Shown here in pieces: positions 39,832-63,000 of a stretch of 64,000 bases of DNA. The position numbers and the translations under genes are program-made. The stretch lies in NCBI GenBank assembly GCA_905178155.1, contig CAJINV010000001.1, positions 3,983,706-4,047,705 on the forward strand, in the 5' to 3' direction. The notes beneath the pieces are model-generated. The model had not been told where the DNA came from, did not search any database, and saw only the letters and a program-made list of their open reading frames with translations. Each line of letters begins with the position of its first letter. Position 1 is the stretch's first letter. This DNA comes from Amoebophrya sp. A120 (taxonomy: Eukaryota > Protista > Dinoflagellata).

Positions 39832-42472
39832 ATGGGTAAATTTTCGGACCGTGGCTTCGTGGTCATTACTGGCGCGGCCGGTAATTTCGGTGCGGCGATG
39901 GCGAAGAAAGTGGTGGAAGAGGGGGGCTCTGTGCTTCTCATCGACACGCCGGCATTGACGAAGCCACTGGAGGCGCTGCGCGACTACCTTGCCGACCGTG
40001 CCGCGAAAATCTTCGCCGCACAAAAAAACGCGATAAAGCGCACGGTGAGCGGGACCGTGCTGAATCAACAACTTCTCTTACAACAAGGAACTTCTAGCAG
40101 AAACGGTTCCAGCAGCGATTTGCAGAAGATCCAACAAGGAAATATTAACGGGGACGCGTCGGCGTCGAACAAACCAGTGAAGCTGGAGGATGAGAACAGT
40201 ACTAGCAAAAAGTCCTCCAATGGACCGAGCAGTCCGCTTCCCCCCGGAGCCAACTCCGTGGACAACAGCGCCACAACGACCACCAGCAGTGGCGCACCCG
40301 TCGCAGCCACACCTAATGGCCCGCCGAGCATCAATGTCTACCCTCCGGCAACTGCGTTCAGTCCCGGGTCTCGCTTGTTACCGAGTCCGATGAGCCTGCC
40401 GCATCTCCAACAGCCACGCGTTTATGAAATGCAAATATGTCTGGGTCTGGAAGAATGGAACTTGTAATGCTGTCTGCGGATTCTAAAAATAGCTGTGTTG
40501 CATGAGCAGCAAGAGGAGTCAGCTCTTGGCACGCGGAGAGGGCATTTCTCATGCGTAATTAGCATCAAGCAGCTCTCAAAAAATCTGTGATGCTAGCACC
40601 AGCATCACAGACCTCACGGGTCATGCAAAACGTGCATGACAATCCCCGACTCTTCCAGACCCAGACATTTTTGCATTTGATAGCGTTCTCATGTTCACGA
40701 TGGACGTGCGCATCGACAGCGAGATCGCAAAAATGGAGAACTTATCCTGTGCAAAAGTATCGCACTCGTAGTAATCGCAGCTGTGCATTACAAATCTCCA
40801 TCCCAAGGCAAAACAGCATGACAAATTCCACTTATCATTCTGAGCCAATTTGTAATGCGATTACTATATATTATATTCATGCGAAAAAAGAGGTAGACAG
40901 AGGGTAAACAAGAGGTGGCCGAGAGGTCAAAAAGAGGTCAAAAGAGGTAAAAAAGAGGTCGACAGAGGTGGAGAGGTGGCGCGGGACCCCTTTCGAGAGG
41001 GTCGGCGAGAGGGTGCGCGAGTATAGCCCGCCGAAGGCCCCACCTTAAGGCGGCGCCTAAGTGCCTCAGAGGGTGCAGAGATGTCAAAAAGAGGGGGCGC
41101 GAGAGGTCGACAGAGGTCGAGAGAGGTGGCGCGAATAAGGGGCGACCTCTCGCGGACCCTCTTGGCCACCTCTCGGCCACCTCTGTCGACCTCTACTCGC
41201 GAGTATAGCCGGATTATTAGCGGGGACCCCCAAAAGAGGCAAAAAAGAGGGTCTGCGAGAGGTCTGCGAGAGGGTAAAGACACAAAGTGGTGGGCGCGAA
41301 TCCGCATGGTACTACCATTATTTGGCACTGCAGGCTATTCGCGGACTTGTTTTGTTCGGCGCCTGTCCCCGCCACCCTCTCGCGCACCCTCTCGCGCACC
41401 CTCTCGCGCCACCCTCTCGCGCACCCTCTCGCGCCACCCTCTCACAAACCTTCTCGCGCACCCTCTCGCGCCACCCTCCCGCGCTACCCTCTCGCGCCAC
41501 CCTCTCGCGCTACCCTCTGCCGCCGAGCGGCTTCTGTTCGCCCCCGGCGTTCTTTGCCGCTGCTCGCTGCGCAGAGCGCCCGCAGGCGCGGGAAGCGCGC
41601 AAGTGGTCCTGCGGGTTGGCGCGGCGCAAACCGGCGGCACGAATGCAGTGTGTTTCGTTGTGCATAGGCCCGTGGGGTTGTGGTCCGGTCGGCAAATAGT
41701 CTTGCCCCGGCCCAACAGCCTTGCGCTCCGGCGGCAGCCGGAGCATGGCTGGTTACTACTAGTGCGATACTTTTCTTTGAAATGCATAGAACTTTCTGGA
41801 GCAGGAGAAGCTGATCGTCTACGGGCTCTTCAACAACGCGGGGATCCAGGGCGAAATTCAACCCATCTACGACACCACGGTGCAGGACTTTGAGAACGTC
41901 ATCCAGGTGAACGTTGTCGGTGCCTTCAAGGTTTTGCGGTCCGTAACGAAGTACATGAAAGACCGAGGGCAAAAGGGCGCTGTGGTGTCAACCTCAAGCA
42001 CGGCGTGGAACGGCGTGCCAAACATGATCGGGTATGGACGGTTAGTAATTGAGTTGTTGAAAAGACACACAGACATAGATAAACTCGATCGAGAAGTGAG
42101 ATGTCAGAAACGAATCACGAATACCACCCAAATACAACAAAAATCAGATACTCGATGTCCAAGGCCGCGGTAGTGGGCATGACGGGCAGCGCCGGCAAGG
42201 ACCTGGCACCCTTCGGGATTCGCGTGAACTGCATCTCCCCGGGCCACGTGGGCGGCACCATGTGGGACCGCAAGCTGAACCTCCAGGCCAAACTGAACAC
42301 GCAGTACTGGCCGCACGGGGACCCAAAGGCCATCGGCGAGGCCATGCTGAAAAAGGTTCCCCAGCGCCGAGCCGCGGACGTGACAGAAATCATCAACGTG
42401 GTTAGCTTTCTCCTCTCCGAAGAAGCATCCTTCATGACCGGGGAGAACGTGCGTGTCGCGGGCGGGGAGTAA
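39832..42472 (+). CDS. Short-chain dehydrogenase/reductase; two TIR introns plus GT-AG intron 42032-42147
   Basis: ITGAAGNFG, FTMDV, FNNAG, G|YSMSK, GIRVNCISPG, SFMTGENVRVAGG. Confidence 0.9.
40423..40682. mobile_element. Introner/MITE family B (opposite orientation to the 15163 copy), non-canonical intron of SDR
   Basis: TIR tatgaaatgcaaatatgtctgggtctggaag / cttccagacccagacatttttgcatttgata; DR gcgtt; removal gives QPRV-LMFTMDV. Confidence 0.92.
40743..41788. mobile_element. Introner/MITE family A with nested ~887-bp insert (40867-41753), non-canonical intron of SDR
   Basis: tatcctgtgcaaaagtatcgcactcgtagtaa ... ctagtgcgatacttttctttgaaatgcata; DR gaact; removal gives MEN-FLEQEKLIVYGLFNNAG. 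Confidence 0.9.
41374..41520. repeat. Tandem ~12-13-bp repeat (accctctcgcgc/c), with inverse agagg-rich tract at 40885-41130
   Basis: Directly visible iterated units. Confidence 0.8.
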
Positions 42473-42484
42473 GAAGCTCTACTG

Positions 42485-43154
42485 TACTGACGCGAATTTT
42501 GTCTGTAGACGAAAATTTTCAAATTTTTGCTTCCCTGCCGATGTTGGATGGATGCAGGGGCGCTGATGATGATCTGTTCGCAGAATTTCTTGGGGACATA
42601 TTTTGGACGTTTTCTGAAGGCAAAAAACGTCGCGCCACAAGGCGGCCGGAGAGGGAGGCCCTTTTTCGGCGGCCTACGCCGAGCTATTTCGGCCGATTTT
42701 ATCGGCCAGTCTGAAAATTTGTCTGCAGCTCTCCGGGAGGGGTCGGAAACGAGGTCGTTTCCGGAGCTCCCGAGAGAGCCAAAAATGGCCAATTCGCGAG
42801 GCTTTTTTTCGGGGCCCGGCCGGAGCTATTTCGGCCGATTTTATCGGCCAGTCTGAAAATTTGTCTGCAGCTCAGGAGGAGCACTCCCAAAAGCTACCTT
42901 TTTTGGCCTCCTTCTCAAGGCCTTCAAAAACTGCCAAAAAGGCGACACCTGCCCAGCAGCTCCAAGCGCCTCCATTTGGCGCGGCTGCTACTGCCAGTCT
43001 GCCAGCCTGTTATGCCCGCCCTTGCGAATTCCTGTGGAGCCTTCCCAAAAAACCGAAACAGGTCTCACCCTTCGCGGCAGCAAGATCGCCGGGAGGGTGC
43101 TGCGGAGTGAAAAAATTTGAAAAATTTCGTGTACAGACAAAATTCCCGGTAGTA
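42485..43154. mobile_element. 670-bp TIR element (TAC...GTA ends) just after the SDR stop codon
   Basis: TIR tactgacgcgaattttgtctgtagacgaaaattttcaaattttt / aaaaatttgaaaaatttcgtgtacagacaaaattcccggtagta; DR tactg (42480-42484, 43155-43159); internal ~50-bp direct repeat at 42681 and 42823. Confidence 0.85.
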
Positions 43155-45588
43155 TACTGTTGATCTTACTTAATAAAGATTGTACGCTCATCGCTGAACA
43201 GGATGGCGGAGGTGGCGGGCGAGGACTTCGTCACAAAATGTAATTGCGATGGAGGACGAGATGAAATATTTTTAAGACAGGTGTTGTAACATGTTCTTGT
43301 AGAAAGATTTTCTACTCACTTCGATTTTTTATTTTAGCAAAGCGCTTCCAAATCCGCTTGGTCCGCCAATACTGGCATTGCCGCAGCTCCATTTTTCCCT
43401 TACATCCACTGCACCGCTAAGCTTACCTTTTATAACCTTATCGTCGTGTGTGTCATAACCATAAGTCAACGAAGATTGTAGTGTCACAAGGTGCTCCACC
43501 ACCGCTATGCCCCCGTTTATTTGCCACCCAGGTTTACACAAATTTGCAACTTGTTTCAGTAAAACTTAACTGCGAGTTTTACTGGATTGATTTGAAGATT
43601 TTTTTTACCGATATGGGGTCAATAATACAGGGTCGATCTTAGCACAGAAATTCTCAAATGTGCAGCAATATTTAGAAGCTGAGAAGGACAAGGAGGACAA
43701 TACTGAAGCGCTTTTGGAAGGACGATTCTCATTGTGAGTGTGCTGAAGCTGATGATGGTCAATACATCGTAAAAGCATCAATTTCATCAAATACAGCTGC
43801 TGCATTGTCCTCCCCCTCGCGAGGTCAATAAAAAAAGCAAAAGGCCAAGCTACTCCCCCCACCTAAACGTAAACGTGTATGCGCAGCTTCTTCCCGCTGC
43901 ACAGCTTGCATACGCATACTCCAGCACATAAAATTGATCGCGAACCGATTCTATCCACTTTCTGGAAGAGTGAGATAGAGATGTCGTGACCAGCAGTAGT
44001 AACGGTGCCAAACTATGACCATCTACTAACGCTAACGATTTTGCCTCAGATATTTATTCATCAAACCTTAAACTTTTTTGATTGGGGCAAAACAACAAGC
44101 ACTGCTTCAGCTTCTCACCAGCCGACTCGGGGTCAGCACGCTGATGGCGGGAGTTATGCTGTCAATATAGTTTCCCTCCCCCTGACGGCGATGTCAACCT
44201 TGAATAAGTTGAAAGCGAGTAGAACGGAGGACAGCTTTGAGGTCGCTGAGAAGGAGTTTGTTCTGAATTGTCGAAGAATTTTTATATCGCAGTGATTATC
44301 TACCTATACGGTTTAGGGGCATCAAGAATTTTTACCTGTTAGTTTGTGATGTTTACGAGACCATGAGCATGACAACAGGGCGTGCAGCAGGAAGAGCCAC
44401 AACTTCGTAGAATGGTATCAATTCATGATTTTCGAATCTGCGTCAAGTGAGACGGTGAGGCTGTCGTGAACGTTGATCATTAGGAACTACACCAGGCACG
44501 ACTCGCGCTGCAACATTTCAGACTGCATGACTGTACATCAGATTTGTCACATGAATCGAGGCAAAACACGCTAGACCGCTGCTGTTGGAAATAAACGTAA
44601 ATCAAGAAATGTGTTGCCAGAATGTACCTGTACCTATGTAAACTTCATCATCTTCGTCGACCTACGACATTTGCCCTCCACCGGAGGTGAGACGTTCCTT
44701 ACACTTGATGGAGGATCTGACCGCGAGAAGTTTCTCCTGTTCGAGCGGAAACATCACTGAAGCAGCTGCGTCCTCCTAGTCAGTGGCGCACCACGACTTC
44801 GTGAACCGCATCGTCAAGAGCAGTACGGACGCGGTGTACAACTGATAGAAGTGTTGATGATCAGAGACCAAATAACTCATCTTCACACCGTTCGTACAGC
44901 TCGTTCTGCTAATATGTACTTGCCAGTATTTCTACTTCAGGTAGTTCGGATGGAAAATACGATCGATCAACATTCCACGCGGTCCGTTGTGGTTGATGTA
45001 CTAGAGGTTTATTCGCTCCATCACTATAACTCTTCCTTGTCGTGAGATCACGAGTGAGAAGAAGTTGAAGAGAATTTGATCGTGAAGCTTGTATCAAGGG
45101 TGAGGGAGGGAGCACGTAATATGCAATCACCATCGGATTCGGATACGACGAAAAGTATTCGTCCTGCCGTTCTTGTTCTTTCCGTAATTCTTCTGGGTGT
45201 GAAGATTTTCATCTCATCTAGAGGGTATAGGGTTCGGAATCGCATTTGCTGCCTGTTTGGTAATTATTATGTCTACGGGTCGTGTAGTACGCGTTCGTGT
45301 TGTTTATTAGCTTTCTACGGATTGACGCTAGGACGGAGGTGTTCCATGGCGTCCACGTAATACATCGAAAATTGCAGACAGACTTGTTTTTTCGTGCAGG
45401 GTGTTGCTGTGGCTCTACGTCTAGTTGAACAAATAACAAACAAGCGGCCATCTTCGGGTGTCTCGTTTCGTGGTTCGGTCGCATTTTGGGTTGGACTTTT
45501 TTTTAGATCTTTCAGAACTGCAACAGCTGCTAGAGAATACACCATCTATTTCTTTGTTTTCCCACCCCCACCTGTGAACGAACCAATC

Positions 45589-46930
45589 ATGTCTGCCACC
45601 GGGTCAACAAATGTGGAGAGGGGTGAGGGCACGGTGGAGCCCGTGGTGCCCAACTACCCCATGAGCAGCCAACCAGGACAGCACGCTGAGTGGGCGGGAA
45701 GCGTGCCGAGCAAGTGGATGGATCGAGCGTCTAACAACTTGCGATCAAGACACATTGTGCATACCGCTGCACGAAACGGAGATGGAGATTCGCTCGCGAG
45801 GATGGGTACAAAAGAACTCGAAATTTCTGTATTGTTGATTGCTTCCTTTGCTTTGTTCGTCACTCATGGGCTCGTGCTTGTTGATTCTTCTTGTATGTTA
45901 CTACTGCACGCGCCCGCTATCTTTTCCTGCACAGGAAGACGAGTTTGTTATATCAACCGTGTTCTTCATTCTGAATCCCGAAAGAAATGATCTGAAAACG
46001 AGGTTTTGGTTGCTACTACGAGGACAAGCGCGGTCTGGAACGAACACACGGCCTGAAATACATTCCCGAGCCGCAGTTTCCGGAGGGGGAGTGGAAACCG
46101 CTGGTGAAGAAGGTCGAGGAGGTGTCCGGGTGGGACCGCCCGGACCGCCCCGAGGGGACGAAGCGGCCGCCCAAGATGGAGGGCCAGCGACCCACGATGC
46201 GGCGGGAGAAGCGCCACGTGCGGCAGGTGGAGTCCCACCAGGAGATCTTCGACATCCCGGAGGGCAAGCACATCGCCATGATCGACCACCTGCATCCGGA
46301 CGGAAGCAAGTCCCAGCTGCGGCAGGCTGACAAAGTCGCGTTTGAAGCGACGTTGGAAAACAGCATGACCCGGAAGCGGGTGCAACCGCGAACGCTGACC
46401 GAGCAAAGGAATGGCATCCCGTGTGCGAGTTTGGGTGACAAGTACTACATATCCTGTGCAAAAGTATCGTGCTCGTAGTAATTGCAATGATGCGTGACAA
46501 ATCTCCTTCTTAATTGAAATCAGCATTACAAATTCCATTTTTCATGCTGGGGGAATTTGTCATGCGATTTCTACTAGAAGTGCGATACTTTCTTTGCAGT
46601 TCATACTACAAGTTCCCGGAGTACAGTGACAAGTTCTTCCACGGATTGTCAGCATCCACAACTGCGGAGCTGATCTGCGGCAGCGGGTTCGTGCGGGGGT
46701 CCTACCAGAAGACCATCCCGCGCATGACGACGAACTGGGAAGCGTTTGCGGCCGAGTGCTACCCGGAGTCCTGCAGGAGAAAACCCTTCGCGCAGTTGGA
46801 AAAGGAGCGGGAGCAGAAGGAGGCCGAGGACTCCGTGGAAGTGCTGCACAAAACGTGGGAGAAGAAAGAGCTGAAATTTGGCGATCCAAAGTATGTGGAA
46901 CCCAGCGACAGCGAGGATGAGTCACCGTGA
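45589..46930 (+). CDS. SPATS1/SASRP1-like protein, one TIR intron
   Basis: RNGIPCASLGDKYY-KFPEYSDKFF resembles the SASRP1 RNGIP..PGD..Y..PE.S..F motif; C-terminal coiled coil. Confidence 0.55.
46450..46605. mobile_element. Introner/MITE family A, uninterrupted 156-bp copy
   Basis: tatcctgtgcaaaagtatcg ... tgcgatactttctttgcagttcata; DR ctaca (46445-46449, 46606-46610); removal gives DKYY-KFPEY. Confidence 0.9.
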
Positions 46931-48052
46931 GGGCGGTGAGCAGGTGATGTGTCGAGCTGCTGGGGCTTTTTTTTCCTGAACGACGGTTCGCAGTGAAATG
47001 ATGTTGATGATGAACCTCAACATCTATTAGAACAAACAAGAGCAATGTATCATGCGCGTCCTCGTCGTCGATGCACTGACGTGTTTTCGTTGTGATGGCT
47101 GCCCGACTTCTGTACGAACTTGTCAAAGGAAATTCCTTTCGAGAAAATGAATCGGCCCCGAATGCGCGACAATATGAATGCTCCTTCGCCTCTGCGAAAT
47201 GAAAAGCCGGCTTTCGCTTTTTGCTGTGTCCTGTACAACTGGCTGTTTCTCTTTTCTCGTTTCTATTGAGGAAACATGGATTCTACTACTTTCGTGGTAA
47301 ACAGCTATCCACCGCGTGTCAGTCTTCGTGTACATCCTTCGGTTCGTCGCGCCACGTGATCTGTCTGTGCTTGCCAACGTCAAAAAGTAAAAATTAAAAT
47401 CAAAATTTCCAATTCCATGCATCTTCGGTTCGTCCAACGTATCATGAAGGTCGTAAAGATATTTATCTTCTCGTGCGTTTCGTTGACGTTCAACATCTTG
47501 CGATCGTTTACCAGCACGACCCGTCGGTGGATTTATCGTATAATTGTTGAGCAGGACTACAAAAACCAACATTTCTATTCGTCCACATCAAAAGCAACGA
47601 GGTAGAGGCACAACGCGCGTCGTGTCTCGTGCAAGACGGTGCTTTGATTCTTCACTGTCACGACCGCCAACGGAAACCGTTGAATACTAGAACGAGCTAC
47701 TGTTAGAAACCATAAGACATAGATTGACGCTCTCCCTCTCGCTTTGCAACCTTCACTTCTTCGAAAAATGACAGTTAGAATACCCTACTTTTGGTGAAAC
47801 TAGAAATTTACTAATCTACCTCCCCAGTTTATTCGCACATATAGTGTGTATCTGTATTTTTCATTTGCGTTTGCTCCCGGCATTTCTTCATCAGGAGCAG
47901 TGCATTTATCGTTGCGGAGCCCAAAGTACAACTTCACATCCGACTTTCCCCACTCATTTTGAACAACTTGAATTTCTAGGACGAGGACGGACTCGCGCTA
48001 CGGCAGTTCCCGTGTTTTTTCCCGTTCTGGCCCCTTGCATGATCGCAACAAA

Positions 48053-51000
48053 ATGAGTTCGTCCTCCGAAGAGCAGCAAGAAGAGCAGGAGTTCAACAGC
48101 ACGGGAAACTACTCGGAGCAGGATTTCGCCTCGACGGGAGGGAATTCGGAGCACGATTTTGAGTCTGTGCACGGCGGGAACAATAGCAACCACGGGGACA
48201 ACAATTATCCCTACAACAGCGACTCTGCTGGAAATTACGACAGTCTCGGCGAGGATGGGGCTGAAGAGCATAATCTGTCTTCGGAAAACGAGCTAGAAGT
48301 TGCGGAGAACGCGCTTTTGTCCGCTTCCCGGTTTTCACAGGTCACGTCCAACCACGATAATTATCTTGAGCAGGAACTCCCCGCCGTCGCGCAAGTGGAC
48401 ACCAGGTACGTCAACGATCCGTTTTCGGCGTTCGGCGATGGGGAACACAATTCCGGCCAGTCGGAAGATCATTCCTCAGAGGACCAATTTGAAGACGAAG
48501 CCTTCCAGTCCCCGATAGCGGCAGCCGCTCCACGAACGATTCTACCAGAGGGGGAGGGGCTGGTGATGAGCACCACTTTAGTACCAGAGCGTGGGGTCGA
48601 CGACCTCCAACAGCATCAGAGCTCCAGTTCGAGCGATATTCCGGATGGTATTGTCTACGGGTCTGGGCTGATGCAGGGTAAAGCGGTCGATGAGGAGGAC
48701 GATGACGAGGACCATGAGGTTGACACGCAATTGACAAGGACCGTCCTTGCGGCCAGCGGCGGGGCTTTGCCTCCGGGCGGCGCCGTTCTGGTCGAGGGCC
48801 AAGCGGGGTTTGAAGACGACGGTGTTGAGGGCAGCCAAGGGGAGTTGGCGGAAAACCTCAGCCTGGTGTCGTCTTCTTTGGAAAAAATCAACGGTTTGAA
48901 AACGAAGAGCAACACTTCTTCAAAAACAGCCTGGGACCGCGAGCAGGAGAGACAGAGGAGACAGGACATGATCACGGAAAGCAGGGCAAAAGCTGTCGTG
49001 CAAGTGGTCGCACCGACCGCCACCAGAATGGTCTACCACCAGCAACAAACGACCTCGAGTAGAAGCAGGCCCGGCATCAGTACAACTTCCAGCAAGACCG
49101 AGAGTGTGGAAGACGTGAAGGAAAAGCTCGCATCGTTGCAGGAGCGTAGGAACGAGCGCACAGCCAAGATGAACAACTACCTCCAGCGTCACGACATTGT
49201 GTCGCCGACACGGGTGGGAGGAGCAACAGCAACAGCAACTTCTACATCGAATCGGCCTAATATCGCACCAATCACAGCTACGACCCTCGATCTAAACGCG
49301 GCCCGGCGGCAGCAGGCGGAGAAGCGATCGAGCCCGCGACAGCACAAGACCAAGCACGTACTCGCCGCGACGTACCGCAAAGAGATTTTAAGCGCTGCGT
49401 CGAACGCCGCAACGACCAGTGTGTACGACACCTGCTCCGCACCGAGTACGGCTCGGAACAATTTGATGAAGCAGCAGCTGTTGGCCGATCCCGACCGTCT
49501 GTTTGACGAGGAAGAGGAAGATGAGGAGGACGACGTCCCGGCTTACACCCTGCCGATGAAGCTGATCGCCAGAACGAACTACGAGGAGTCAGAAGAAGAG
49601 GAAGTGGTCGATGACTTGGACAACGGCTTGCTCTTAGACTTCGACTTAGACGTCGCTCAGCTACAGGCACAGCAACAGATGATGCAGCAGGCGGGCGGGA
49701 ATGGTCCTCAGATGAGCACCCGACCAGGTGGCAACTTGGGTGGAAACAAGAGTCTGCGCATGAAGGGCGGCGGCCTATTCTCCTCGGCATCAACGTCCGG
49801 TCCGCAGAATTCCTCCCCTCCCGGCCCTGCTTTGCGGGGCATTATGGCTGGTAGTGGACTACAGCCTGCACCTGCTGTCGGGTCTTCTTCATCTCAGTAC
49901 CGCGGGCGCAGTGGGGCTGGAAGTAGTAGTGCAGAGAGGAGGAGAAAAAACAGCCCGGGCCGCAGTGCGGAAGACCACAGTACGGGGGTGCTGACCACAA
50001 AATTCGGCAGTAACCGTATTCCAAACATCGCCCCACGAGCGGCAGAGCCGTGCCTCGAGGTGGTGAACTTGGGCACACCGCCGCCAACCGCTGTTTCTTG
50101 CTTTTACGGGGGCGACGAGCGGAGCAGTGCACCCGCGAGCGCCCGCACCTCGGGCAGTGCGAGGGGATCTGCCAGCACTAGTAACAACAATCCGGCACAG
50201 AGACCGCCATCGCTGGGGGGAAGCAACTACCAAATCATGTTGACGCGTGCGAGCGATGCGAACCACGAGCAGGTGGACATCACGCCGCGAAAGAAGGACC
50301 CGACCAAGCACCCGGAGTTCAAGAAGCTGCAAACGAGCATCAGTGCGAAGATAAAAATGCCGGATGTTCTTGGCTACAACGTGCAGTCCATTCTCGCCGG
50401 GCGAGACGCGAGCGAGTTCTTCTCGCCTCTCCCCGCCGCGAGCGCGACAGCCGCGCGAAATAATGCCACAGGCGGGCCGCTGTCGTCCAGTGGGACGAAC
50501 AAGGACTACAAGGTACTGGAATACCAGAAGATCCAGCCGACAAAACAGCCCCAGGCCCCGACGTTCTTCAAGGCGCCAGATTTGGCACAGCACTTCCATG
50601 CGATCGAAGCTGCGAAGAAGAAGGAAATTGAGGACCAACTTCGGAAACAGCGCGAGGAGGAGCGGCGCCGACTTGCCGAAGAGGAGGAGCGACGACGGTC
50701 TATTGCTGCGATTCCCTTAAAGCCGATGCTCGGGCGCCCGGTAGGCATCGGCGCCAATCTGCAGAACGTGGTCCGGCTGAACCAGCAAAAGTGGGAGCAG
50801 ACAGAGGTCAAATTTGGCGAAAGATCCGCGTCTGCGGCGAGGCGGAAGCAAGCAGAGGCACACGCGAAGCTTCACCAGAAGATGGTATTATACATAGGAG
50901 TTAGGTTTCTGTAAATTAGAATTTCCCGCCTTTCTACACTTTGATATGATCCAACACGGCTATCGCATTTTGTTTTCGACGTTGTGATTTTTTTCACCAA

Positions 51001-54000
51001 GAACTACGAAAGCGTAGTTGAAGTTGAAGTTGATCTTTTTTTCAAAAAAAAAGATCACGAGAGCGTTGAAGTTGATCTTCATTTGACATAGTCAAAACAA
51101 AAATCCTAAAACAGCCGACACGCGCGATGCATACGCAGCACCACCAACAATCGCCGTCCTCTCCCCGACATAACTTTTTGGCACCGCCGACCGCCGGGCA
51201 ATCTCCTCTGAAGAGCAGTCTTCCTGAAACCAGCAGAGACCCAGAGCTGTATGCGTCGTCCATCTCCGCGACGGCCGACCAACAACTACCGCACCATCGC
51301 GCACCAGACGGGCTCGGGGCCTCGGGGGTGGAGAGCCTTACTACTTCCTTTGACAGAATTCGGCTCCCCTACGAGGTGGAGGGAAACGAAGAGGTGGAGG
51401 AAAACATGGAGCGCATCGAGAGTGTGATCAACAAGGTCGCGGCTAACACGAGGCGGGCCAAGCTGCCGATCCAACTACCGCTGAACACGTTGCACCTCAC
51501 GCCCCGAATCGTGGACTTGAGCACCCTGGCCGCGGCCAGCAGTGCGCGGACCGGGTCGCCCCCAATCACCGCACGGGCCGAGGGGGAGGGAATCCCCCCT
51601 CCCATGAACAGCAGCAAAGACAAGCAGCTACCCTTCGAAACACCACGAGAAATGGACACTCCGCGTTCGCCGAGAGCGGTGGTCGGTTCTTTGGCTTCAA
51701 GGGTAAAGCGCATGAGCAAACCCCTAACGACGAAGCAGTATGAACAGCCTACAGAGGCTCCGGAATTCATCGAGGAACTACTGTATAAATGATTTACATT
51801 TTCTATTTTGTTGTCGTCTCTGTAGCTGTCCACTCACTGTGCTGCTTTTCAATCTGAAGTCTTCAGATTCAGAAGAATTTGTATTTGAAACTTCTTGTCT
51901 ATATATGATGCAGCATCACCAAAAGTTTTATCTATCACACAACAGCGAACCAAGCCAGCTTCGTTTGTGTTCGAATCCGCCGTCCGTGGGGGCGAGCAAG
52001 AAGTCGATGGATGTTCCGGAGGACGAGAAGATCAACCCCTGGTACACTCCGGGGGAGTACGAGCAAAATAACGGGAGCAAGTTCTCCATGAACGTGATTG
52101 GCGCGGCGGAAGATCAAGAACAGAGTCAGAACGTCGACCCCATGGTAGAGGTTTCGAAGACCATCGGCAGGATGCAGCAAATGACGAGTTTGCCGCCCCG
52201 AAACCTCCCAAAGGGAACTCTCCGGGAACACCAGAGCCGGTCGTTTTTCGACCGAATTCCGAAAACCCCCCGGGACGGCAAGATGCAGATGCCGGCACCG
52301 CTGGTGTGTCCCGCGGGCGCGCAGATCGACGAGGAGCGGCTGGCCATGGCTCCCCAGCTGTCGATGAGTGCTATGCCGCCCATCCGAGCAGATTTGAACT
52401 TCGTCGACGTGGAAAATTTCATGCAGAACGCGACCCTGACGGCGGACGACATTGACCTCTGCCCCATGCCCCCACCGGAACTGGTCGAGGAGTTCCAGAC
52501 CCCGCGGCCGAATGTCGGTCCCCCGATGCCCATGCCGTTTGACGGCATGGTGGGCACCGGCGAGTACGTCCAGGCCGACCCGGAGGCGGAGAAGCGCGAG
52601 TTCCTGGAGAAATACGACATGTGCCCGCAGAAGGTGGTCGCGCCAATCGCCACGGTGAAGCTGGACATGGAGTCCTTCCAGAAGAAGTCGCTCACCGCCA
52701 GTTTGGCCACCGGGGGACGGGCACTGGAGCACTGCCAGAAATTTTTCGTCACGGACGCGAGTGCTGCGCTCGTGGAAAAGAACCTGACCGACTCCCCACG
52801 TGGCGTGTTAGCGTCGCCACGCGGAGTCGCTGGTCTGTTCGCCACCACCACATCAGGAGCCTCGGCGGACCGCGACAACCTCCGCGGCAAGATGAAGTCT
52901 GGACGCAGTAGAGGTGGGGGTACAACTTCTAACGCGGGAAACTTAAGCGCGAGAGGTGGGCCTGCAAGTAGTGTACCTGGAGGTGGGAGAAATAGACCGG
53001 CCTCGAAGACGCTGCAGCGTGGCACCTCGTCCGGAGCTGCAGTGAATATTAACAATCGAATCGCTACGCCAAGCTCCAAAACAAGCGCGAAAGGAGCGAG
53101 CACCACTGGCACTAGAGCGGGAAGCAAACTAGGCAAAGCCGCCCTAGCGCCGCCAAGTGCGGATGGCGCTGAGGCCGCGGAGCAAAAGAACACACAGAGC
53201 GACAGAGTCATGAACACCATCGATCCGACTACATCAAGCACAACAACTGGAGCAATTGCCAGTACAAATAAAGCTCCGACAGAACAACAACCGCAGCGAC
53301 CGAAAGCACTGCCGATGTTCAACATGGTTCCGAACACGCAGACCGTGCGCGCACTGATGACCCCGAGACCAGCACCGCCATTGACGAACAAGTCTGGCGC
53401 TGGAAGGCAGTCGCAGTCCGGCAACTTGAGCAGCGGGAGTGCGAGCGGTTCCGGGCCGGAACGACAGAGGTCAGCTTCCTCCTCTTCCAGCCGACAGGGG
53501 GCGCCGGCCTTTGGATTGCAGATGGTATCGCTTTTCCCGCCAAGAAAAAGTGTGACCGGCGCGAACAGAGAAGACGCTGTTCGTCCGGAGATGCGTGCAC
53601 CCACACCGAAACCGCCGGCCCCACAGTTGCAGCCCCCTCCGGAGATGATCCTGCAGGAACAAAGAGCGATGCAAGAGCCGCAGCCGCTGCCCGGCGTTTT
53701 GATCCAGCCCATGAGCGTGCAGGACTTGCAACGCAACACCATGCTGAAGCCGGGGGATCGAAACTTTTCCAGAAACAAGATCGTCGTGCAAGAACCGTTC
53801 TCAATGCCCCAGAGCAACGCCGCCGTGATGGTGGAAAGCGGAATAAAGGCCGCACAGGTGGTTGCCGCTCAACAGCAAGAGGAGCAACAGGCAGCACAGT
53901 TGAACAACAACACGACCCGAACGACGGAACGAAGGCAGCACCACGGGCATACGCACTCCACGAGGATAAAGGAACGCGAGCCGCACGGCCAGAAAAGACG

Positions 54001-55492
54001 GTCATCCAGTCGCGGTCAGCATTACCGGCATCATTCGAAATCCAGGCACTCTAGTAAAACCACCGAGGATCCCAACCCGGAAGACCGAGAGCTGTCAATC
54101 CCTCAGCCTGCGGTCGATTGGCGAAATCCAAGTATCGTCTGCAAAACCGGACTGCCGACGGATTGGGCGGCGTCTAGCCGGGAGCAGTTTCGCAACACTA
54201 TGCAGAACAAAGTAGCGCAGATAGCCGATAGTCTCGCGCCGAAGCTAGTTTCCACGGTTGTCTTCAGTCCCCGGCTGAAAGAAAAGGAACAAAACAAGAC
54301 AAAAAAGGAAACATCAAGTAAGCGCGGAAACAGCCCGACGACCGGAGGAGTGCTTAGTAGCGACGGCGGCGGGGGTAAAAACACCTCCGGGTCCTCCAGC
54401 TCGCGGCCCGGGACTAAAACCACAGCCAAAAAGAGACCGAGTACTTCATCTACTACAACTGCCGCGCAAAAACGATTACCCGCAAGCAATTCCACAACAG
54501 GCCCCGATCTTAACGACGAACTTGCAGCAAGGGAAGGTGCTGCTGTAGCACCAGCAGTAGAGATGAATTACGCAGCATCCACCTCCACACCAGGGGCTGT
54601 GCAAATGCAAAACAAGAGCAACACCGAGGCAGCCGCTGTTTCGCCCCTTTTACTCGACGAAGCCGTCGCCGCCGAGGTGGAAGAGTCTCTGGAGCAGAGC
54701 CGGGCGAGCAGCAAAAACAAGATCCAGGCCGTCCTGTTCACCCCTAGATCCCGCGGTCAACCACCCGAGCAGCAGCGCGCCGGCAGCCACCAGATGGCGC
54801 TTTTGCGGTCCCAGTCCTCGAACACGCAGAGCCAAACTAGTACATCGAGAGATACCACCAGCAGTAACACTAGAACAACCCCCTTGAAAAAAGCAGCGAC
54901 TGTGTCCCTAGCTGGCACAACTCCTGATGAACAACGTAGTGGCAAGGTGGTTCACACAAAAGCAGCGCTGTACAGCAGGAAAGTGAAAGCTACTTCATCT
55001 GGGGATGCTGGTGGTCGTTCACGGTCATCAGCGGGGTACAGTCCCGTCAGCCGGCAGTCTTCCACTTCTGTGCTCCCGTCCTCTTCTCGGGGCGGCGGTA
55101 CCACACCCCTGGTCGTGGAATACTCCTCCGCCATGACGTCGCGCGCGCGGACGCCCACTCCGCCAAAGAGGACGCGATCCCGGGGCGGTGGAAGTAGTAC
55201 ATCGCCGAAGGCGGGAGCACGAAGTCGAAGCCGATCTGGGTCGAAGAATAGCCGTAGCCCACCACCGACCGGTAGGCCGTCCACCGCGGGGAACCCTCAG
55301 CTCAGGATTCTGCGGGAACGCCAACAAGACAAAATCGCGGGAGAAGCCGCCGCGAAGAAGGCCGCAGAGAGAAAAGCTAGGATTCAGGCCAGACAAAGCA
55401 GCAGAGGACCGGGTGCTGCTGCCGGAGGTGCTACCGCAACTCCCGATCGATTTACCTCGCCGGCGTTAGCTGATCCGCTACATAGATACTGA
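48053..55492 (+). CDS. Giant (~2350 aa) low-complexity, probably disordered hypothetical protein (exons 48053-50884, 51115-51782, 51946-55492)
   Basis: Three long ORFs joined by phase-compatible GT-AG introns; no domain recognised. Confidence 0.7.
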
Positions 55493-57005
55493 GCAGCTCC
55501 TCAAACATTTCAAGTTTTTTTTTCACATCGAATTCTCCTCGCAATTCTAGCCTACCCACACCTACTAGTAGTTGACATAAATAAGAAAGAAAAATCCCCC
55601 ATGATCATGAGCAAGAGATTTGCGCTGGATCGCAAGCATGCTAGTGGTCACAGTATTCATTTTCTTTTTCATTTATCCACATGATCTTCCAAATAGCCTG
55701 GGTAGCACATCCTGCACACTCCTGCTCCGAGTTTTTTTTTACATGTCTTATGTCATAGAGCATGCAAGAAAGACATCAACGTAATTATTTCATCAACATT
55801 TTTCGTTGCTTAACAATATTCAACGTGTCATAGATACAAATCGCATTCGCTGGCCACGATCCATCGATCGCGATCCAGGCCTCATCTATGTCCTTCATTT
55901 TTCAATTGTCACTATCATGAATCATTTGTCATACGTCTAAAGGAGGGTGCTATCAGCCTCTACGTCTACTTTCTGATTCCATTCATACATTTCCTACGAT
56001 ATGTACTGAATTTCGCCAGAGCACCACGAGACAGATGGTGAGTGCCTGAGGTTTTGGTTGTTGAAGACATTCCTGGATATGGTTTTCATTGCCTTCTGAT
56101 GTACAAATTTTGGAAGACGCAAATTTACCATAGCCATCCGTTCATATTGATATCACTCGAACGTGTTGCAAAATTCAACAGCCCCCTACACGAGAGGCTG
56201 CAAGATGCAGATGTTCAGAGGCCCACTGGTAGTAGTAGGCCGCAAAATCGTAATCCAGACTTTGTGCTGTACTAGATGTGGTTGTACAAAGAGCTATGTA
56301 GTTGGCTCTACCTGCTCAGCTGTCCTCGCGTCACCAAAGTTCAGGCTGTCCCAACAGAAAAAATAGAAATTTGGAAGTTAGCGCTCAGCTTTAATCCGTA
56401 GTCGCTCCTCCTCAATTACGAATTGGCATAGGTAGCCGGGTCCCACAACCGCGATCGAACTTGAAAAATCTGCCCGATCTGGTTGTATAAGTTTTTGTTG
56501 ATCTTCTATCTTCATCTCCATTACAGCAGCCTTTGCCATACTCACCACGAACACTTATCATTTTTTCGTAGTACAACTCAGCAACACCATCACCAAGCAC
56601 TGTAGAAATAATACGCCATCTCAAAAACGAAACCGAAACGCGGTTTCCAGTCCTCAGTGTTTCGTCTATTTTTACCCGACGCGAGTAATGAAGTAACAGT
56701 AAGTAGAAGTACCCTGCCAGTGATACCAGCAAGTACAACAAGTAGTTTTACAATCTCAATCAAACGACCCACCAAGATGTTGGCAAGCAAGATGGTCGAA
56801 CGGGTCCGTGCATCGCGCCGGTGTGAAAGTTTCTTGCCTTTTCTCCAATAAACCGAGGAGTGGGGGCTTACATTATTAGCAGTCGTTTTTGTCCGCCGGA
56901 GGGACCGCGCAGCGACCGCGAACGAGGAAAAGAACGACTTTCTCCAGCTCTTTCTAGAACAATAAATACCCACGACGGCCCCCCCGCGGCAACGACGAAC
57001 GACAA

Positions 57006-60000
57006 ATGGGACGCGATCTGGATAAATCCCTAGAGGAGTTGATCGACTCAGGCTCAAAAAAGAATGTCACCCTCCGCCCTAACCACAGCCAGACCGGAAG
57101 TAACACTGCCTACCCGCCCCCGCAGAACAATAACAGCTATCATGGAAACAACAACTACAGCAACAAGAACTATGGCGGCAAGAATGGGGGCGGTGTTGGA
57201 GGGTGGAACGGGGGCAGCGGGAAGAGCAATTGGAGTAACAACAGCGACCATTACGACCTGGCCTACGGGCAACCGCCAAACGCTGGCCCGCCACTGATGC
57301 AGCACCACCCGCCAGGAGCAGGCGGGGGAGCACCATGGCAACACGGCGGCCACCACCAGCCACCCCCTGCGTACTACCCACCGCAGGGCGGTCCGGGTGG
57401 GCCACCGCCCATGCAGGGCGGCGGGAAAGGTACTGGAAGATCTAATAGTCGTGTTATGAATATGATTAGATTTTTGTTTGAAAAATATGTACCAAAGCTT
57501 CGTCTACTTCTTCATCTTCTACCGAGAACGCCGTGGAGCTGTGTAGGATATTAGGCATCACTGAATCAGAATGACCATGACGATAGACTATCAAGAAAGG
57601 CTTTCAACAAAAATCTGAGAAGCGACATTGAACGACATCAACGATAATTGAATTTTCTAAACGTAAACCAAAATAGGCAACGGCTGGAGTGGTCCACCTG
57701 TCGGCGGCGTTGCTAAGCCGTTCGATAAGCGAAACCAAGCCGGTCCGTGGGGAAACGTAAAAGGAGGCATGAAAGACGCCGGTGGAATGAAAGGCCGCAA
57801 GTGGGGCGGGCACTCGCAACCGCTTGACGAAAAGGCTGCTAGGATGACCAAGATACAATTCAACAAATCCGGCGACCTCTGTGTGAAATTGTACTACTTT
57901 ATCATCAGCTACTTCTGCAGTTCGTTTCTTTTTTTTTTCTCAACAAGTGAAGCTCTTGGTCACGCACCTTGCGGAAGCGGAGTGGGGAGGTCTCCCGCCT
58001 CCACGCCGGAACCAGTATGTTGATATTTAGTAATGGCGTTTCCTAGTAATCGAATCCATTTACATTTTCGCAGGTATTGCTATTCCCGTTTCCCACCAAA
58101 ACTACTAAATCTCTGCAGGTATGAAACCGATGTGTGTATTTTTCGCAAGAACCTTGCCACGTCCAAGTGTGCCAGCGTGGAGATTAACAGTGGCGGCTTC
58201 CACACGCCGGAAACGAAGGCCATCATTCGCGAGTGCCTCCATGCCGTCGACCTGAAGATCCGGCACACGAAGAGGAGATCCGTGGTTCTGAAAGAGAATC
58301 CGAACAACAGCAAAACACCAAAGAATGACGCCAATTTATCCCCGACGACCGAAGAGGACGACAAAACGCAGAATGAAAGTGGCGAGAACAACGAGATGAA
58401 TACAGCGAAAACTTCTTCGCTAGTGATCGATGGAAACGCCAGCGTCGACGCCGAAGGAGCGGCTGCTCCGGTGGTGAAGAAGCGACCACGGCTATCCTGT
58501 GTAAAAACGTCCCCACACCAGAATTGTAATGCAGATTTGCAAACAAGACAGGAAGACTTGTAACGCGCATCCCCATGAGAGCCATTTCCAATCGCGTTTT
58601 GGAATTTGTGATGCTGTGAACAGGATGAGGAGATGAATCTGTGACGCGGCTGCACTTCCTAACCTGCACTACACTGCGGAGTGCAACTTGTCATGCGTGA
58701 CTCACAAAACTCCTAGGTTTGTGTTGCAAAATCCCCTTCCTGACTCTGGTGTGGGTACGTTTTTACTCAGGATAGCGGCCCGTCGCGGGGCCAGACGATT
58801 TGGACTTCGCCGAGGAGGACGACGATATACTGGCCGAATCCGACGAACACGAGGAAGAAAATCAAAATGCAGCTGCAGAAATAAATGCCGCCGACCCCGA
58901 GCACCAGGAAGGAGATGCTGAAAACGAAGAAAACAAAGAAGCCGGAGACGACGAGGAGCAGGCGGCGGCAGAGCCAAATCCCAACGAGGCTTCCGGCAAG
59001 GAAAAGGAGGGTGAGGCGCCAGCGATGAGTGGGGAAGATAAGGAATCCAGGAGAAATTTCTTGGTGGAGCGGCTTGCGATGCTGAAGAAGAAAAAAGCGG
59101 AGCAGAATCAAAAACAAAAAGCTGCTACGCTGGTATATTCTTTTTGAAGTTAGAGGCCTTGTTCTGTTCTCAAAAAATAGTTTGCTGTTGGTGCAACTGA
59201 TTCAAACTCTTTGTAGCAGTCACGCACAGGTCATGCGAGGATATGCATTATGCAGGTGTCACGCGAGGTCGCAGATTTTTTCCGTATGCGATTATGGACG
59301 AAGATCATGAAGAACGTATACAAAAACCAATGCACCAGAATTACAAAACACGCAGGCACATGATGTTAAAGTTGAAATGAACTGTGACTCAGATAAAATC
59401 CGGACAAGTGGTTGCCAGCAGTTCTGTTGCGAAGAAGAAAGGGCCCCCGTGTCCGTGGACCGTTTACGGGAGAAACGTATCCTGTGCAAAAGTATCGTAC
59501 TCGTAGTAATCGCAGTCATGGTGCACTACAAATCTTTTTCTTAAGGCAAATCCGCATTACAAATTCCATTTCTAATGCTAAGGAGATTTGTATTGCGATT
59601 TATAGTATAAATCGCAATACAAATGTAGGCAAGGGAGTGAAACTTCGAAGGGAGTCAAGGGAGCCAAGGGAGGAAGATAAAATTTGTACAAATTGTCTCC
59701 CCTTAAATCATCGCCAAAATGCTGCATGCTATGGGCGCGCTTACCGGTCGCCGGCTTGCGCCCTGCTGCCCCCCCCCCCCGCTGCGGCCCCAGGTTTGTC
59801 CGCGCTTAGGCATTGGCTCGCTGCCGAAGGCCCTGGTCTCTTGAAGAAGGTGAGGGCTTCTAGAGTCGCCCCCGTCATCAACAGGAGTCGCCGGGGTGGC
59901 CTGGCCTCTGCCTGGCAACAAAGAGCGTGGAGCCGAAGGAACGCGTAAACTGCTGCCGTGACCATGTCGAGTTTCCGTCGTCCGGGGGAAGTCGCGGCAG

Positions 60001-63000
60001 CCACTTAAGCAATTTGCTTGTCGAGATCTTTCAGGCGAGGTTCTGCGTGACCAGATTCAACGTCATGCGTTGCCGAGCAGGGAATACGAAGTGGAAATGT
60101 TGAAGCGGCCACTTCGACTTTCTCCAATCGGGAAAGAGTTGCAGTGGCCGTCGGAACGCGCAGCAAGTTTGAAGCTCACACGCGTAGCATATGCAGCCTG
60201 CTTCGCGCTGATGCTACTTCGCAACATTCCCACACGCGGGCGCATGTCTTACATGTTGCACGCGCCTCGCTGCGCGCGCGCAGCGCGCGGCCTGAAAAAT
60301 TTTTGTTGTGTGCGCACAGGCGTCGATCCGCGCGCGCGCAGCGCGCGCCGCGAAAAATTTTTGCTATATGCCGATCGCATTGGCGCGCACGACTGCTTTG
60401 TTTTTTATCGTACTCCCTTGGCTCCCTTGGAAAGTTGCGCTGTACTCCCTTGGCTGGCGCCAGACACTAATAAACCTATTATACTAGTGCGATACTTTTG
60501 CAATGCATAAAACGCCGCGGGCGAACATTTCGAAATCGAGTGCTACGACGGAATCGTACTGCAAACTGTTGCTGTGCTTTTCCTATTTGCCCCAGTTCCT
60601 TGACAAAAGTAAAAAAGTAGAGCAGTATTGGATTCTTCCAGCTACAGTTTCCAGCGCATATCCATATCCGTTTCGAAGTCTTGCTGCAGCAAATAACATA
60701 TAACAAGTTCTATGATGCATACTTTACTTACTACAGGTCATCTCACTCCCCAACGCTCTGACGGTGCTTGGAAAGCTGAAAGGCAAACTGATGGACCGCA
60801 TGCGGTTCTTACGCAACGAACAACCGCTCTATCCGCAGCGCGGCATGCACCACGGCGGTCCACCAGGAGCACCAGGTGCCCCCCCGCACGGCGGACCACC
60901 TCCACCAGGGATGCATCACATGCACCCGCAGCAACCCGCACCTCCGGGTGCTGGGGTTCAACCGAGCAACCTCCCACCCGGAGTGCAGCCAGGACAGGTG
61001 ATCTACCAAATTCCCCACGGCGCGGCTCCGCCACCGAATCTGCCACCGGGATCCGTCGTTCAGTACTTACCACCGGGACAAGTAGTACACGCACCGGGAG
61101 GACCGGCGCAAGCACAGTATCTACTAATGATTTTATTCTATCAGTACAACTCTAGCGCCGCGAGCGCCATCACTACAGGATGAAGCGAGCAGGAGCTCTG
61201 GACTACTTTTTTTATTTTTCATCACTCGGCATATGCTTACGATTACTATAGCCTTCGGTTGGAAATCTTGTTCAGAAGGCGTGTGATATAACTAGCGGCA
61301 CCTCGAGGAGGTGCGATCGAGGAGTTGTCCTAAGGCTAGAATAAAGTCGCGGAGGATCATGGCAATACGTCATGGCAATCAAATTTATTGTGTTTATCAT
61401 TTTTTCATTACCGAATTTTATGTGGTCCAATTCCCATGATGATATAACTGATATAACGGAAATTAAAAATTTTCGCCCATGGGAGGGCACCGCGCGAGGC
61501 CCATCGTTGCCGTGGTCTGTCTGCCCGGGGATTCGTCGGCATAGCGTAAACCCCTCGGCCGTTCTGCGCAATGCCTCCGCAGCGGCTGGTCGACTCAGCG
61601 TCATGAAATTCGCGAGAGATGGCACGGCCAAAGACCTGCCCGCGGTTCTCTCTGAAGCCTTTCGGCTTGACCGCGCCGGTGCGGCGGCGCTCTGTAACTG
61701 CAACCAAGGGCGCTGCGTAATTTTCGAAGCGCCCGCCGAGCGACGTTGTAGAAGTAGCAGCCCCGGCTTGGCGATATCGGTCGTGAACGCCGGCGGCCTC
61801 ACCGGCTGGGAAAGCCGGCGCCTCCCCGCGGGCCCCGCTACGATCTCGTATTGGGACGACGCGAGAACGGTCGATATCAAAGCGATCGATGTCGCATGAT
61901 CTCCACCTGATCTCCCCCGCGATCTCGTTGATTTCGTGCCCAATGTCGCTGATCTCGCGGACGGAAATTCATGATCTCCCGCCTGATCTCCCCCGCGATC
62001 TCGCTGATCTCGTGCCCGATCTCGTTGATCTCGCGGGCGGAAATTCATTCTACAGCGAAAATGGGAAGGAATTTTCGACCTGCGGGCGCTGGCCAGTAAG
62101 ATCAATTTTGGCCGTGAGTTATATCGCAGCGAGATCGGCGGGAGGGGGTGCGAGATCGGCCGGAGATCGCCGCGAGATCGGCCGGTGATCGGCACGAGAT
62201 CAGCGAGATCGGGAGTCCGCTTTCGTGGATCTCGCTATGGTGCCGGGACGAGGTTGGGGGCTCTTGCTCGTAAGATCAGGAGCCCCCGATCCTGCCAGCT
62301 TATTTATCTGTGCCCGCGCTCTGAGTGAGCGCGGGTTCGAAGCTGGGTCACGACTTCGGGCTTCGGGGGCACCATGACCGAGAGCGCCGAGTGTTGTTCC
62401 GATTGGTTGCGGCTGCGTGAGAAGTTTTGTGAGCTTCTGGCGCGGGTGTGGCACTGTGTGGCGCTGCTGGGGGCCCGGCCCCTGTGAATTTGCGTGCGCA
62501 CCTGTGACCAACAGAAAGTGGTCGAGCGTCGCACTTGTACCACTGCGACGGACGCATCCACTTCGGCGCACTATGTCAAGGCGCGAGGAAAGCAGCGCTA
62601 GAACCTGCCTACGCGCTTGGTCACATTTGCGCGAACCCGGGGCGCGAAATTTTTAAAATCGGTTACATGCGTAAGATCATCTTGGGAACTTGGACCACTT
62701 GACGAATTATCCGAAACTAAACAAACAGGATCGTCCACGTTCTACCAGCGGGAAGTCCTTCGGGCCACCACGCGCAAAATCATGCTGGCAGCAATTCAGA
62801 CAATGAGGATCTGAAATGGGGCCGCGCAGCGCAAGGCGGCACGAGCGGCGGTGGCGCCATCCGGCTGGTTTCCGCAGCCGAGAAGCAGCAACGAGACAAC
62901 CGCCCACAGTATAACCAAGTGCAGCAGGTAGTTTCAAGTTCCAGTCACGGCGGCGTCACACTTGTGTCTAGTAGCGGGTCCCGCGGGCCGCCGACAATAG

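What the first reader, a model, noticed from the sequence alone, without database searches (positions are those of the whole stretch)
40857..60491. Two unrelated ~0.9-kb inserts at exactly the same 5-bp site inside family A introners
The 40743 copy reads GCGAT[TACTA]-887 bp-[TACTA]CTAGTGCG (40862-40866 / 41754-41758). The 59478 copy reads GCGAT[TTATA]-874 bp-[TTATA]CTAGTGCG (59600-59604 / 60479-60483). Both duplicate the homologous five positions at the inner edge of the right TIR, the lengths are similar, and the inserts look unrelated to each other. Inference: a landing pad or cleavage hotspot that lets cargo hitchhike in a harmless, excisable element while leaving the termini intact.
Basis: partly seen in the sequence, partly recalled or inferred. 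Interest (0 to 1): 0.8.

Follow-up and report, generated by a model that had tools for sequence, protein, structure and literature searches.

The report
Helitron-like element homing on parasite introners
In a marine parasite related to Amoebophrya, two unrelated repeated DNA pieces sit within six bases of each other inside copies of one small transposon-made intron; one has the ends of a rolling-circle transposon and recurs at the same base of that intron at other loci, so it likely homes on these introns and is likely spliced out with them.

Summary
The coordinates and letters are exact, and the inserts are unrelated. But neither is cargo, and the 5-bp repeats are probably not target duplications. 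Both inserts are multicopy, non-coding repeats. Insert 1 redraws as an 892-bp element (40861-41752) inserted between A and T with no duplication. It ends in a 20-nt hairpin plus CTGG, a Helitron signature found at only 2 of 127,878 window positions. Its left TACTA is its own 5' end: a homologue in another assembly (L047) sits at the same base of a different family A copy with TACTA left and TTATA right. A third copy shows the same left junction. It starts TT, not TC, so it is Helitron-like, not canonical. Insert 2 shares its TTATA end with copies in other flanks and has a locus-specific 20-nt fold-back at its left junction; its class is unresolved. Repeated homing of insert 1 is likely, but copying of one composite is not excluded (AU p 0.185). 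No genome was held, so genome-wide counts are missing.

The parts
40743..41788 (+). Family A introner copy (TAT...ATA ends, about 25-bp inverted arms, duplication GAACT at 40738-42 / 41789-93) holding insert 1, inside a short-chain dehydrogenase gene
   Evidence: adh_short hits on flanking reading frames
40861..41752 (+). Insert 1 redrawn: 892-bp non-coding Helitron1-like element between target A (40860) and T (41753), no duplication
   Evidence: multicopy contigs end at 41753 in X1, X2 and X4
40861..40868 (+). Element's own 5' end TTACTATA (source of the apparent left TACTA); TT instead of the canonical TC
   Evidence: same start in L047, whose target 5-mer is TTATA
41725..41744 (+). 20-nt GC-rich hairpin (8-bp stem, 4-nt loop), ending 8 nt before the 3' end
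   Evidence: fold z -1.77, 10 of 200 shuffles as stable
41749..41752 (+). 3' CTRR terminus (CTGG), followed by target T
41358..41523 (+). Internal 12-13-bp tandem array, much shorter in L047; AGAGG-type units in the 5' half are its inverted partners
59478..60509 (+). Family A introner copy (duplication AAACG at 59473-77 / 60510-14) holding insert 2; removal restores an open frame
59605..59624 (+). Locus-specific 20-nt perfect inverted copy of the local target (59586-59604 plus the base now at 60484), forming a 19-bp hairpin; likely a fold-back repair scar
   Evidence: exact 20-mer in 1 of 27 copies; fold z -8.5; single-locus depth in bin 59588-59618
59625..60483 (.). Insert 2 body: multicopy non-coding repeat with imperfect subterminal inverted repeats (59627-59692 / 60397-60455) and a right end ...CCTATTATA shared with copies in other flanks; class unresolved
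9731..9881 (-). Empty family A copy (duplication ACTCG)
46450..46605 (+). Empty family A copy (duplication CTACA)

Best explanation
Insert 1 is a multicopy non-coding element with Helitron-type ends, likely moved by a rolling-circle transposase encoded elsewhere, that has likely inserted repeatedly between one A and T in the right arm of family A introners, where it is likely spliced out with the host intron; insert 2 is an unrelated multicopy repeat that landed 1-6 bases away in a likely separate event with a likely repair scar. Shown: insert 1's ends (TTACTATA ... hairpin-CTGG), the A|T junction without duplication at two loci, the same left junction at a third, multicopy status of both inserts, intact introner ends. 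Inferred: the transposase nicks the target at A|T and favours this site because the bases after the nick (TTACTA / TTTATA) resemble the element's own 5' end, which is also what mimics a 5-bp duplication. Inferred: copies inside an introner are harmless and so persist. Inferred: insert 2's left junction was repaired by fold-back synthesis from the target end.
For: Two-locus comparison: window GCGA|TTACTATA...CTGG|TTACTA, L047 GCAA|TTACTATA...CTGG|TTTATA; removing the element leaves normal family A alleles. CTRR|T plus a stem of 7 bp or more occurs at 2 of 127,878 window positions, one of them exactly 41752. TACTA matches the TA[CT]TA core of the maize Helitron 5' consensus (PMC2267711). Collapsed contigs end exactly at 41753 in three runs, two at about 26-28 times single-locus depth (819.6 vs 29.6; 1130 vs 43.7), as expected if T is the last shared base and flanks then vary. 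No terminal inverted repeat (best 5 bp). L047's flanks do not match the window's gene. Its family A part is 80% identical (120/150) to the window's, while the inserts are 87% identical (646/740; Fisher p 0.027; binomial p 0.008), and the two do not group on the tree. X4 record 21 is a third locus: 40750-41190, 27 differences, no gaps. X4 record 24 starts at 41788 with depth 123, the upstream exon bin has depth 120 and the mid-insert bins 0.
Against: The 5' end is TT, not TC. The hairpin ends 8 nt from the terminus (canonical 10-15), and in L047 it carries an uncompensated mismatch (z -0.07). No RepHel partner was found or could be sought; none of the 8 earlier notes returned for Helitron words in this genome reports one. 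The AU test does not reject the two insert-1 hosts being one clade (p 0.185), and 80% identity is in the top 15% of 351 family A pairs (median 74%). X4 record 21 appears not to carry the common T at 40831 (inferred from table 3), which hints at common descent with the window copy. X2 record 16 ending at 41745 suggests another locus with the same TACTA right junction, as composite copying predicts. The share of insert-1 copies that lie in family A is unknown. X4 is only guessed to be RNA and is a different sample, and the splice joint row was among those not shown.
Confidence: 0.55

Rival explanations
1. Insert 1 entered family A once (by Helitron-type insertion), and the 1-kb composite was then copied as a unit by the introner's transposase; later conversion of arms between family A copies made the hosts look different. 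This is hitchhiking without targeting.
For: The introner's ends and fresh 5-bp duplications are intact at both loci. AU p 0.185. Hosts are somewhat closer than the median pair. There are hints from X4 record 21 and X2 record 16. Family A ends look mosaic.
Against: Hosts are more diverged than inserts (p 0.008-0.027). The target alleles differ (TTACTA vs TTTATA). A collapsed group of about 26-28 near-identical 3' ends branches right after 41753 instead of running on into the family A arm.
Confidence: 0.25
2. Both inserts are rolling-circle elements using adjacent bonds of one GCGA-T-T motif: insert 1 at A|T (Helitron1 rule) and insert 2 at T|T (Helentron/HLE2 rule, with a fixed TTATA target). 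The site is then a shared landing pad for that class of enzyme.
For: Insert 2 has a 12-nt inverted repeat 2 nt after the fold-back scar and 28-40 nt from the right end, plus a short palindrome about 20 nt from that end, close to HINE anatomy (PMC4067079; PMC11417382).
Against: Other copies share TTATA in full and then continue with varied bases, so a strict 5-bp target would be needed. The inverted repeat is part of a longer 60-bp one. The left end is damaged and untestable. No HLE1 3' signature lies in insert 2.
Confidence: 0.12
3. The site is a fragile or nuclease-cut spot in family A, and both inserts were captured during break repair or by recombination through 5-bp microhomology (Crypton-like or end-joining).
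For: Insert 2's junctions look like repair: a 5-bp overlap on the right and a 20-nt fold-back on the left. Small insertions in empty copies peak in this 10-bp bin (7 of 41). Cryptons have 5-6-bp terminal direct repeats and no inverted ends (PMC3212892).
Against: The indel peak is p 0.02 for one bin and not significant across 15 bins. Insert 1 has precise, identical ends at two loci and a Helitron 3' signature, which random capture would not give.
Confidence: 0.08

Closest known systems
Non-autonomous Helitron1 / HLE1 (HelibatN with Helraiser, PMC4778049; wheat Xuan with Feng, PMC13286980; definitions in PMC11417382)
   Same: A|T insertion without duplication, 3' hairpin plus CTRR, no inverted termini, AT-rich 5' end with TACTA core, AT-rich flank after the 3' end, non-coding and multicopy.
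   Different: 5' TT instead of TC; hairpin 8 nt from the end; recurrence at one base of another transposon family; no RepHel partner identified.
Amoebophrya introner elements (Farhat et al. 2021, PMC7789003; Gozashti et al. 2025, PMC12130899)
   Same: Family A has inverted ends, a 5-nt direct repeat, no GT-AG and sits in coding sequence; a window protein's best named hit is Amoebophrya sp. A25 at 52%.
   Different: The passages and tables read do not describe nested insertions ('nested' 0 occurrences in both main texts) or Amoebophrya Helitrons.
Target-specific Helitrons of Paramecium (PMC13085455)
   Same: Alveolate rolling-circle elements proposed to insert into one host repeat; internal satellites.
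   Different: Their target is telomeric repeats and they encode the transposase; here the target is an intron-forming transposon inside genes.
Tx1L retrotransposon in the Tx1D DNA transposon of Xenopus (recalled, and named in earlier scan notes; not read here)
   Same: One mobile element using a fixed site in another as its habitat.
   Different: Tx1L is a coding non-LTR retroelement with a long duplication; insert 1 is non-coding with rolling-circle-type ends.
HINE / DINE-1 (non-autonomous Helentrons, PMC4067079)
   Same: Insert 2 has subterminal inverted repeats and a short palindrome near one end.
   Different: No T runs at the ends; T|T insertion not demonstrable; left end damaged.

Membership tests
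Helitron1 / HLE1 (insert 1) | 5' terminus TC | tested here: not met
   Both loci start TTACTATA; the TA[CT]TA core of the maize consensus is present. So 'works like', not filed as a canonical member.
Helitron1 / HLE1 (insert 1) | 3' terminus CTRR | tested here: met
   CTGG at 41749-52 and in L047
Helitron1 / HLE1 (insert 1) | 16-20-nt hairpin 10-15 nt before the 3' end | tested here: inconclusive
   20-nt hairpin with 8-bp stem, but 8 nt from the end; one stem mismatch in L047
Helitron1 / HLE1 (insert 1) | Insertion between A and T without duplication | tested here: met
   2 of 2 loci with both junctions; two neighbouring registers are formally possible; contigs end at the T in 3 runs
Helitron1 / HLE1 (insert 1) | No terminal inverted repeats | tested here: met
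   best match between the terminal 60 bp is 5 bp
Helitron1 / HLE1 (insert 1) | Autonomous RepHel partner sharing both termini | not testable with these tools
   no genome held; no RepHel query available from any call
Amoebophrya introner element (family A) | Inverted repeats at the ends and a 3-5-nt direct repeat at the borders | tested here: met
Amoebophrya introner element (family A) | Repeated in the genome | tested here: met
   4 copies in the window, 23 complete copies in 19 loci of another assembly; very high summed depth
Amoebophrya introner element (family A) | Removed from the transcript | tested here: inconclusive
   40743 copy: likely-RNA contig consistent with precise removal, joint row not displayed, different sample; 59478 copy: open frame only
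HLE2 / HINE (insert 2) | 12-16-nt subterminal inverted repeats and 3' palindrome | tested here: inconclusive
   11 of 12 match within a longer imperfect repeat; 10-bp palindrome near the right end
HLE2 / HINE (insert 2) | T|T insertion with T runs at both ends | tested here: inconclusive
   left end damaged; TTATA shared by other copies, then varied bases
TAT...ATA cut-and-paste element of this genome (insert 2) | TAT...ATA inverted ends with 5-bp duplication | tested here: inconclusive
   right end reads TATAATAGG inward and ends ATA with varied next base; no matching left end or duplication in this copy
Crypton (either insert) | Matching 5-6-bp terminal direct repeats | tested here: not met
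   met in the window but not in L047 (TACTA vs TTATA)
Crypton (either insert) | Tyrosine-recombinase partner with shared ends | not tested
   no genome held

The most novel reading that the evidence does not exclude
The right-arm motif of family A introners mimics a Helitron left end and is a shared docking site for rolling-circle transposons of two kinds, which cut adjacent bonds (A|T and T|T) and live almost wholly inside self-removing introns of active genes: a TT-start Helitron lineage specialised as a hyperparasite of introners.
Probability: 0.2. Interest if true: 0.72.

Novelty: new variant of a known kind. Interest (0 to 1): 0.48.

Why it matters
Helitrons usually need only an AT dinucleotide in AT-rich DNA (PMC4778049). 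A family that returns to one base of another transposon would be a natural case for learning how a rolling-circle transposase picks a target, which bears on Helitron-based gene delivery. It also shows that the unexplained non-GT-AG introns of Amoebophrya likely tolerate a sevenfold length increase between their paired ends, a constraint on their unknown splicing. As a practical point, it shows how a transposon end that resembles its target fakes a target-site duplication. No paper on Helitrons in Amoebophrya introners turned up (open-licence library only).

Tried and rejected
No whole genome was held, so genome-wide plots could not be made. Pattern scans for insert or family A ends found nothing in viral contigs or prokaryotic genomes. 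No insert-2 homologue was found in the 116 fetched loci, and no further insert end turned up in the window or the 19 family A loci (36,784 bp). Of those 116 loci, 97 were set aside as chance matches to the 16-mer (L070 had one weak hit, E 4.7e-4). Earlier-finding look-ups by sequence returned nothing. No RNA holder was listed as such. The raw-read RNA run X11 gave only 92 partial reads on a neighbouring element, so it is uninformative. Coding cargo: four open frames overlapping insert 1 or lying in it and two overlapping insert 2 were among 10 proteins scanned; none of these hit Pfam. No meaningful Rfam match in 40700-60600. LTR or poly(A) retroelement readings were rejected by eye: no TG...CA ends and no poly(A) tail on either insert. 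One common ancestor for both inserts was rejected. Depth bins beyond 41753 and at insert 2's left end were examined to count copies inside family A and to place the natural left end; both were ambiguous. Depth was zero at 60487-94 even for the window's own junction, so short junction contigs are likely filtered and absence there proves nothing. A resemblance of insert 1's reverse 5' end to the dinoflagellate spliced leader (recalled) was noticed and not pursued.
Full report
Setting. The window is from an Amoebophrya relative: a window protein's best named hit is Amoebophrya sp. A25 at 52% identity. It holds several families of short elements with TAT...ATA ends and 5-bp flanking duplications, matching the introner elements of PMC7789003 (passages and section 10 read). 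No whole genome was held, so outside evidence comes from two read-layings and one pattern scan.

Observation. Family A is about 150 bp with four copies in the window. Removing the 40743-41788 copy plus one GAACT restores a short-chain dehydrogenase frame. Removing 59478-60509 plus one AAACG also gives an open frame. The two inserts are unrelated (score 30 against shuffles with mean 23.3, maximum 37) and show no Pfam or Rfam match.

Insert 1 is a repeat family. In the DNA-like runs X1 and X2 (one sample), contigs covering 41553-41753 have depth 819.6 and 1130, against 29.6 and 43.7 for the single-locus flank contig, roughly 26-28 near-identical copies (the tool warns that depth is a poor copy count). 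Summed depth over the two terminal regions is higher still. Contigs end exactly at 41753 in X1, X2 and X4.

A second locus changes the reading. The 16-mer scan gave 116 loci, 19 of them with family A, all from one other public assembly. From these I took 23 complete copies. I left out L048 (interrupted), L076 and one L039 copy (divergent), one internally deleted L068 copy and two copies cut by locus ends. One of the 19 matched right ends, L047, holds an insert-1 homologue (646 of 740 aligned bases identical) at the same position, in a gene unrelated to the window's. Its left 5-mer is TACTA but its right is TTATA, the commonest family A allele. So TACTA belongs to the element. Redrawn, the junctions are GCGA|TTACTATA...CTGG|TTACTA (40861-41752, 892 bp) and GCAA|TTACTATA...CTGG|TTTATA (747 bp): insertion between A and T with no duplication.

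These are Helitron1 hallmarks: A|T target, 3' CTRR, subterminal hairpin, no inverted ends (PMC4778049, PMC13286980, PMC11417382, passages; PMC4588551, parts 1-2 of 3). A scan of both window strands for CTRR|T with a stem of 7 bp or more 4-15 nt upstream gave 2 hits in 127,878 positions, one at 41752. TACTA matches the TA[CT]TA core of the maize 5' consensus (PMC2267711, passages). Against this: the 5' end is TT rather than TC, the hairpin ends 8 nt from the terminus, its fold is only marginal against shuffles (10 of 200), and L047 has an uncompensated stem mismatch (76 of 200). I therefore say it works like a non-autonomous Helitron1 (about 0.8) but do not file it as a canonical member. No RepHel partner could be sought.

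Is the site targeted? Three loci share the position: the window, L047 and X4 record 21 (left junction only; 40750-41190, 27 differences, no gaps). By my own arithmetic, with at most about 300 copies in about 100 Mb, finding one at a given base among 23 independent copies has a chance near 1e-4, or 1e-3 if only A|T sites count. So either insert 1 homes on the site or the composite was copied as a unit. For homing: hosts are more diverged than inserts (120/150 vs 646/740; p 0.027 and 0.008), target alleles differ, the hosts do not group on the tree, and the collapsed 3' contig branches right after the target T. For copying: AU p 0.185; 80% identity is in the top 15% of 351 pairs; record 21 seems to lack the common T at 40831; X2 record 16 ends at 41745, suggesting another locus with the same TACTA junction. 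Both processes may operate. What share of insert-1 copies lies in family A is unknown.

Insert 2 is a different repeat. Summed depth at 59755 is 130 (X1) and 241 (X2) against 20 and 36 for its single-locus contig, and it rises towards the right end (746 and 1240 in the last full bin). In X1, four contigs match through 60483 or 60484 and then run on into long unlike flanks; X2 shows two such; 32 loose-end rows were not displayed. TTATA is therefore the family's own end or a fixed target, not a duplication of a chance site, and some copies lie in flanks that do not continue as CTAGTGCG. The first 20 nt (59605-59624) are the exact reverse complement of the local target. That 20-mer is in 1 of 27 copies, with the next best at 2 mismatches, and the bin has single-locus depth. 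This looks like fold-back synthesis during repair (the mechanism is recalled; PMC5728401 and PMC2943611 were seen only as search listings). My odds for its class: a TAT...ATA cut-and-paste element with a damaged left end 0.5; an HLE2/HINE-like element at T|T 0.25 (PMC4067079, passages); other fixed-target or repair capture 0.25. Its right junction is 6 bp from insert 1's if TTATA is element-borne and 1 bp if it is target.

Other nesting. Among 27 complete copies, 3 carry a large insert, all in this right-arm spot; two of these prompted the finding. L048 has a poly(A)-tailed insert at a different place, near position 37. Small insertions peak in the same 10-bp bin (7 of 41; p 0.02 for one bin), which is not significant over 15 bins.

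Harmlessness. X4 (guessed RNA, another sample) has a 1472-nt contig that starts matching at 41788 with no differences, where removal of the composite plus one duplication predicts. Depth is 120-123 on both exons and 0 in mid-insert bins. The joint row itself was not displayed, and it is not shown that this sample carries the insert. Insert 2's host was not tested.

Literature. PMC12130899 lists non-LTR, LTR and TIR introners for Amoebophrya A120 (passages). Its supplement file 8 has 18 Helitron mentions, none in an Amoebophrya row, one in Polarella; files 13-14 were not searched. The PMC7789003 supplement held as text had no occurrence of Helitron. Target-specific Helitrons are proposed in Paramecium (PMC13085455, passages). 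Cryptons were considered (PMC3212892, passages) and fail at L047. Searches found no report of Helitrons nesting in introners. Earlier scan notes on retroelements homing on introners in this genome were leads only.

Verdict. The feature is real. New variant of a known kind; interest 0.48.

Noticed in passing
L048, minus strand, upstream of position 1603: Family A copy interrupted near position 37 by an insert of at least 660 bp ending in a 17-nt poly(A); the left junction lies beyond the contig end. A second, retro-type nesting site.
   Followed up: partly
window 31432-32501: 1070-bp TAT...ATA element with 5-bp duplication GCCAG, long inverted arms and an internal direct repeat with hairpins, inside a GC-rich block at about 30.1-33.3 kb with no evident gene.
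   Followed up: no
window 61292, minus strand: The only other CTRR|T plus hairpin hit in the window (CTAG|T, 7-bp stem); may be chance or another Helitron end. A TTACTATA motif lies near 61243.
   Followed up: no
window 61420-62701: 1.28-kb element with about 55-bp inverted ends, an apparent 8-bp duplication and internal tandem repeats, inside an intron.
   Followed up: no
window 42486-43149: Element with TAC...GTA ends, apparent duplication TACTG and an internal 77-bp direct repeat, just after the dehydrogenase stop codon.
   Followed up: no
window 15163-15424 and 40423-40682: A second introner family whose arm is extremely abundant in the reads and appears in raw RNA reads of X11.
   Followed up: no
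family A copies, both arms: End subtypes appear shuffled between copies; for example L047's right end is of the type usually found at the left, suggesting conversion between arms.
   Followed up: no
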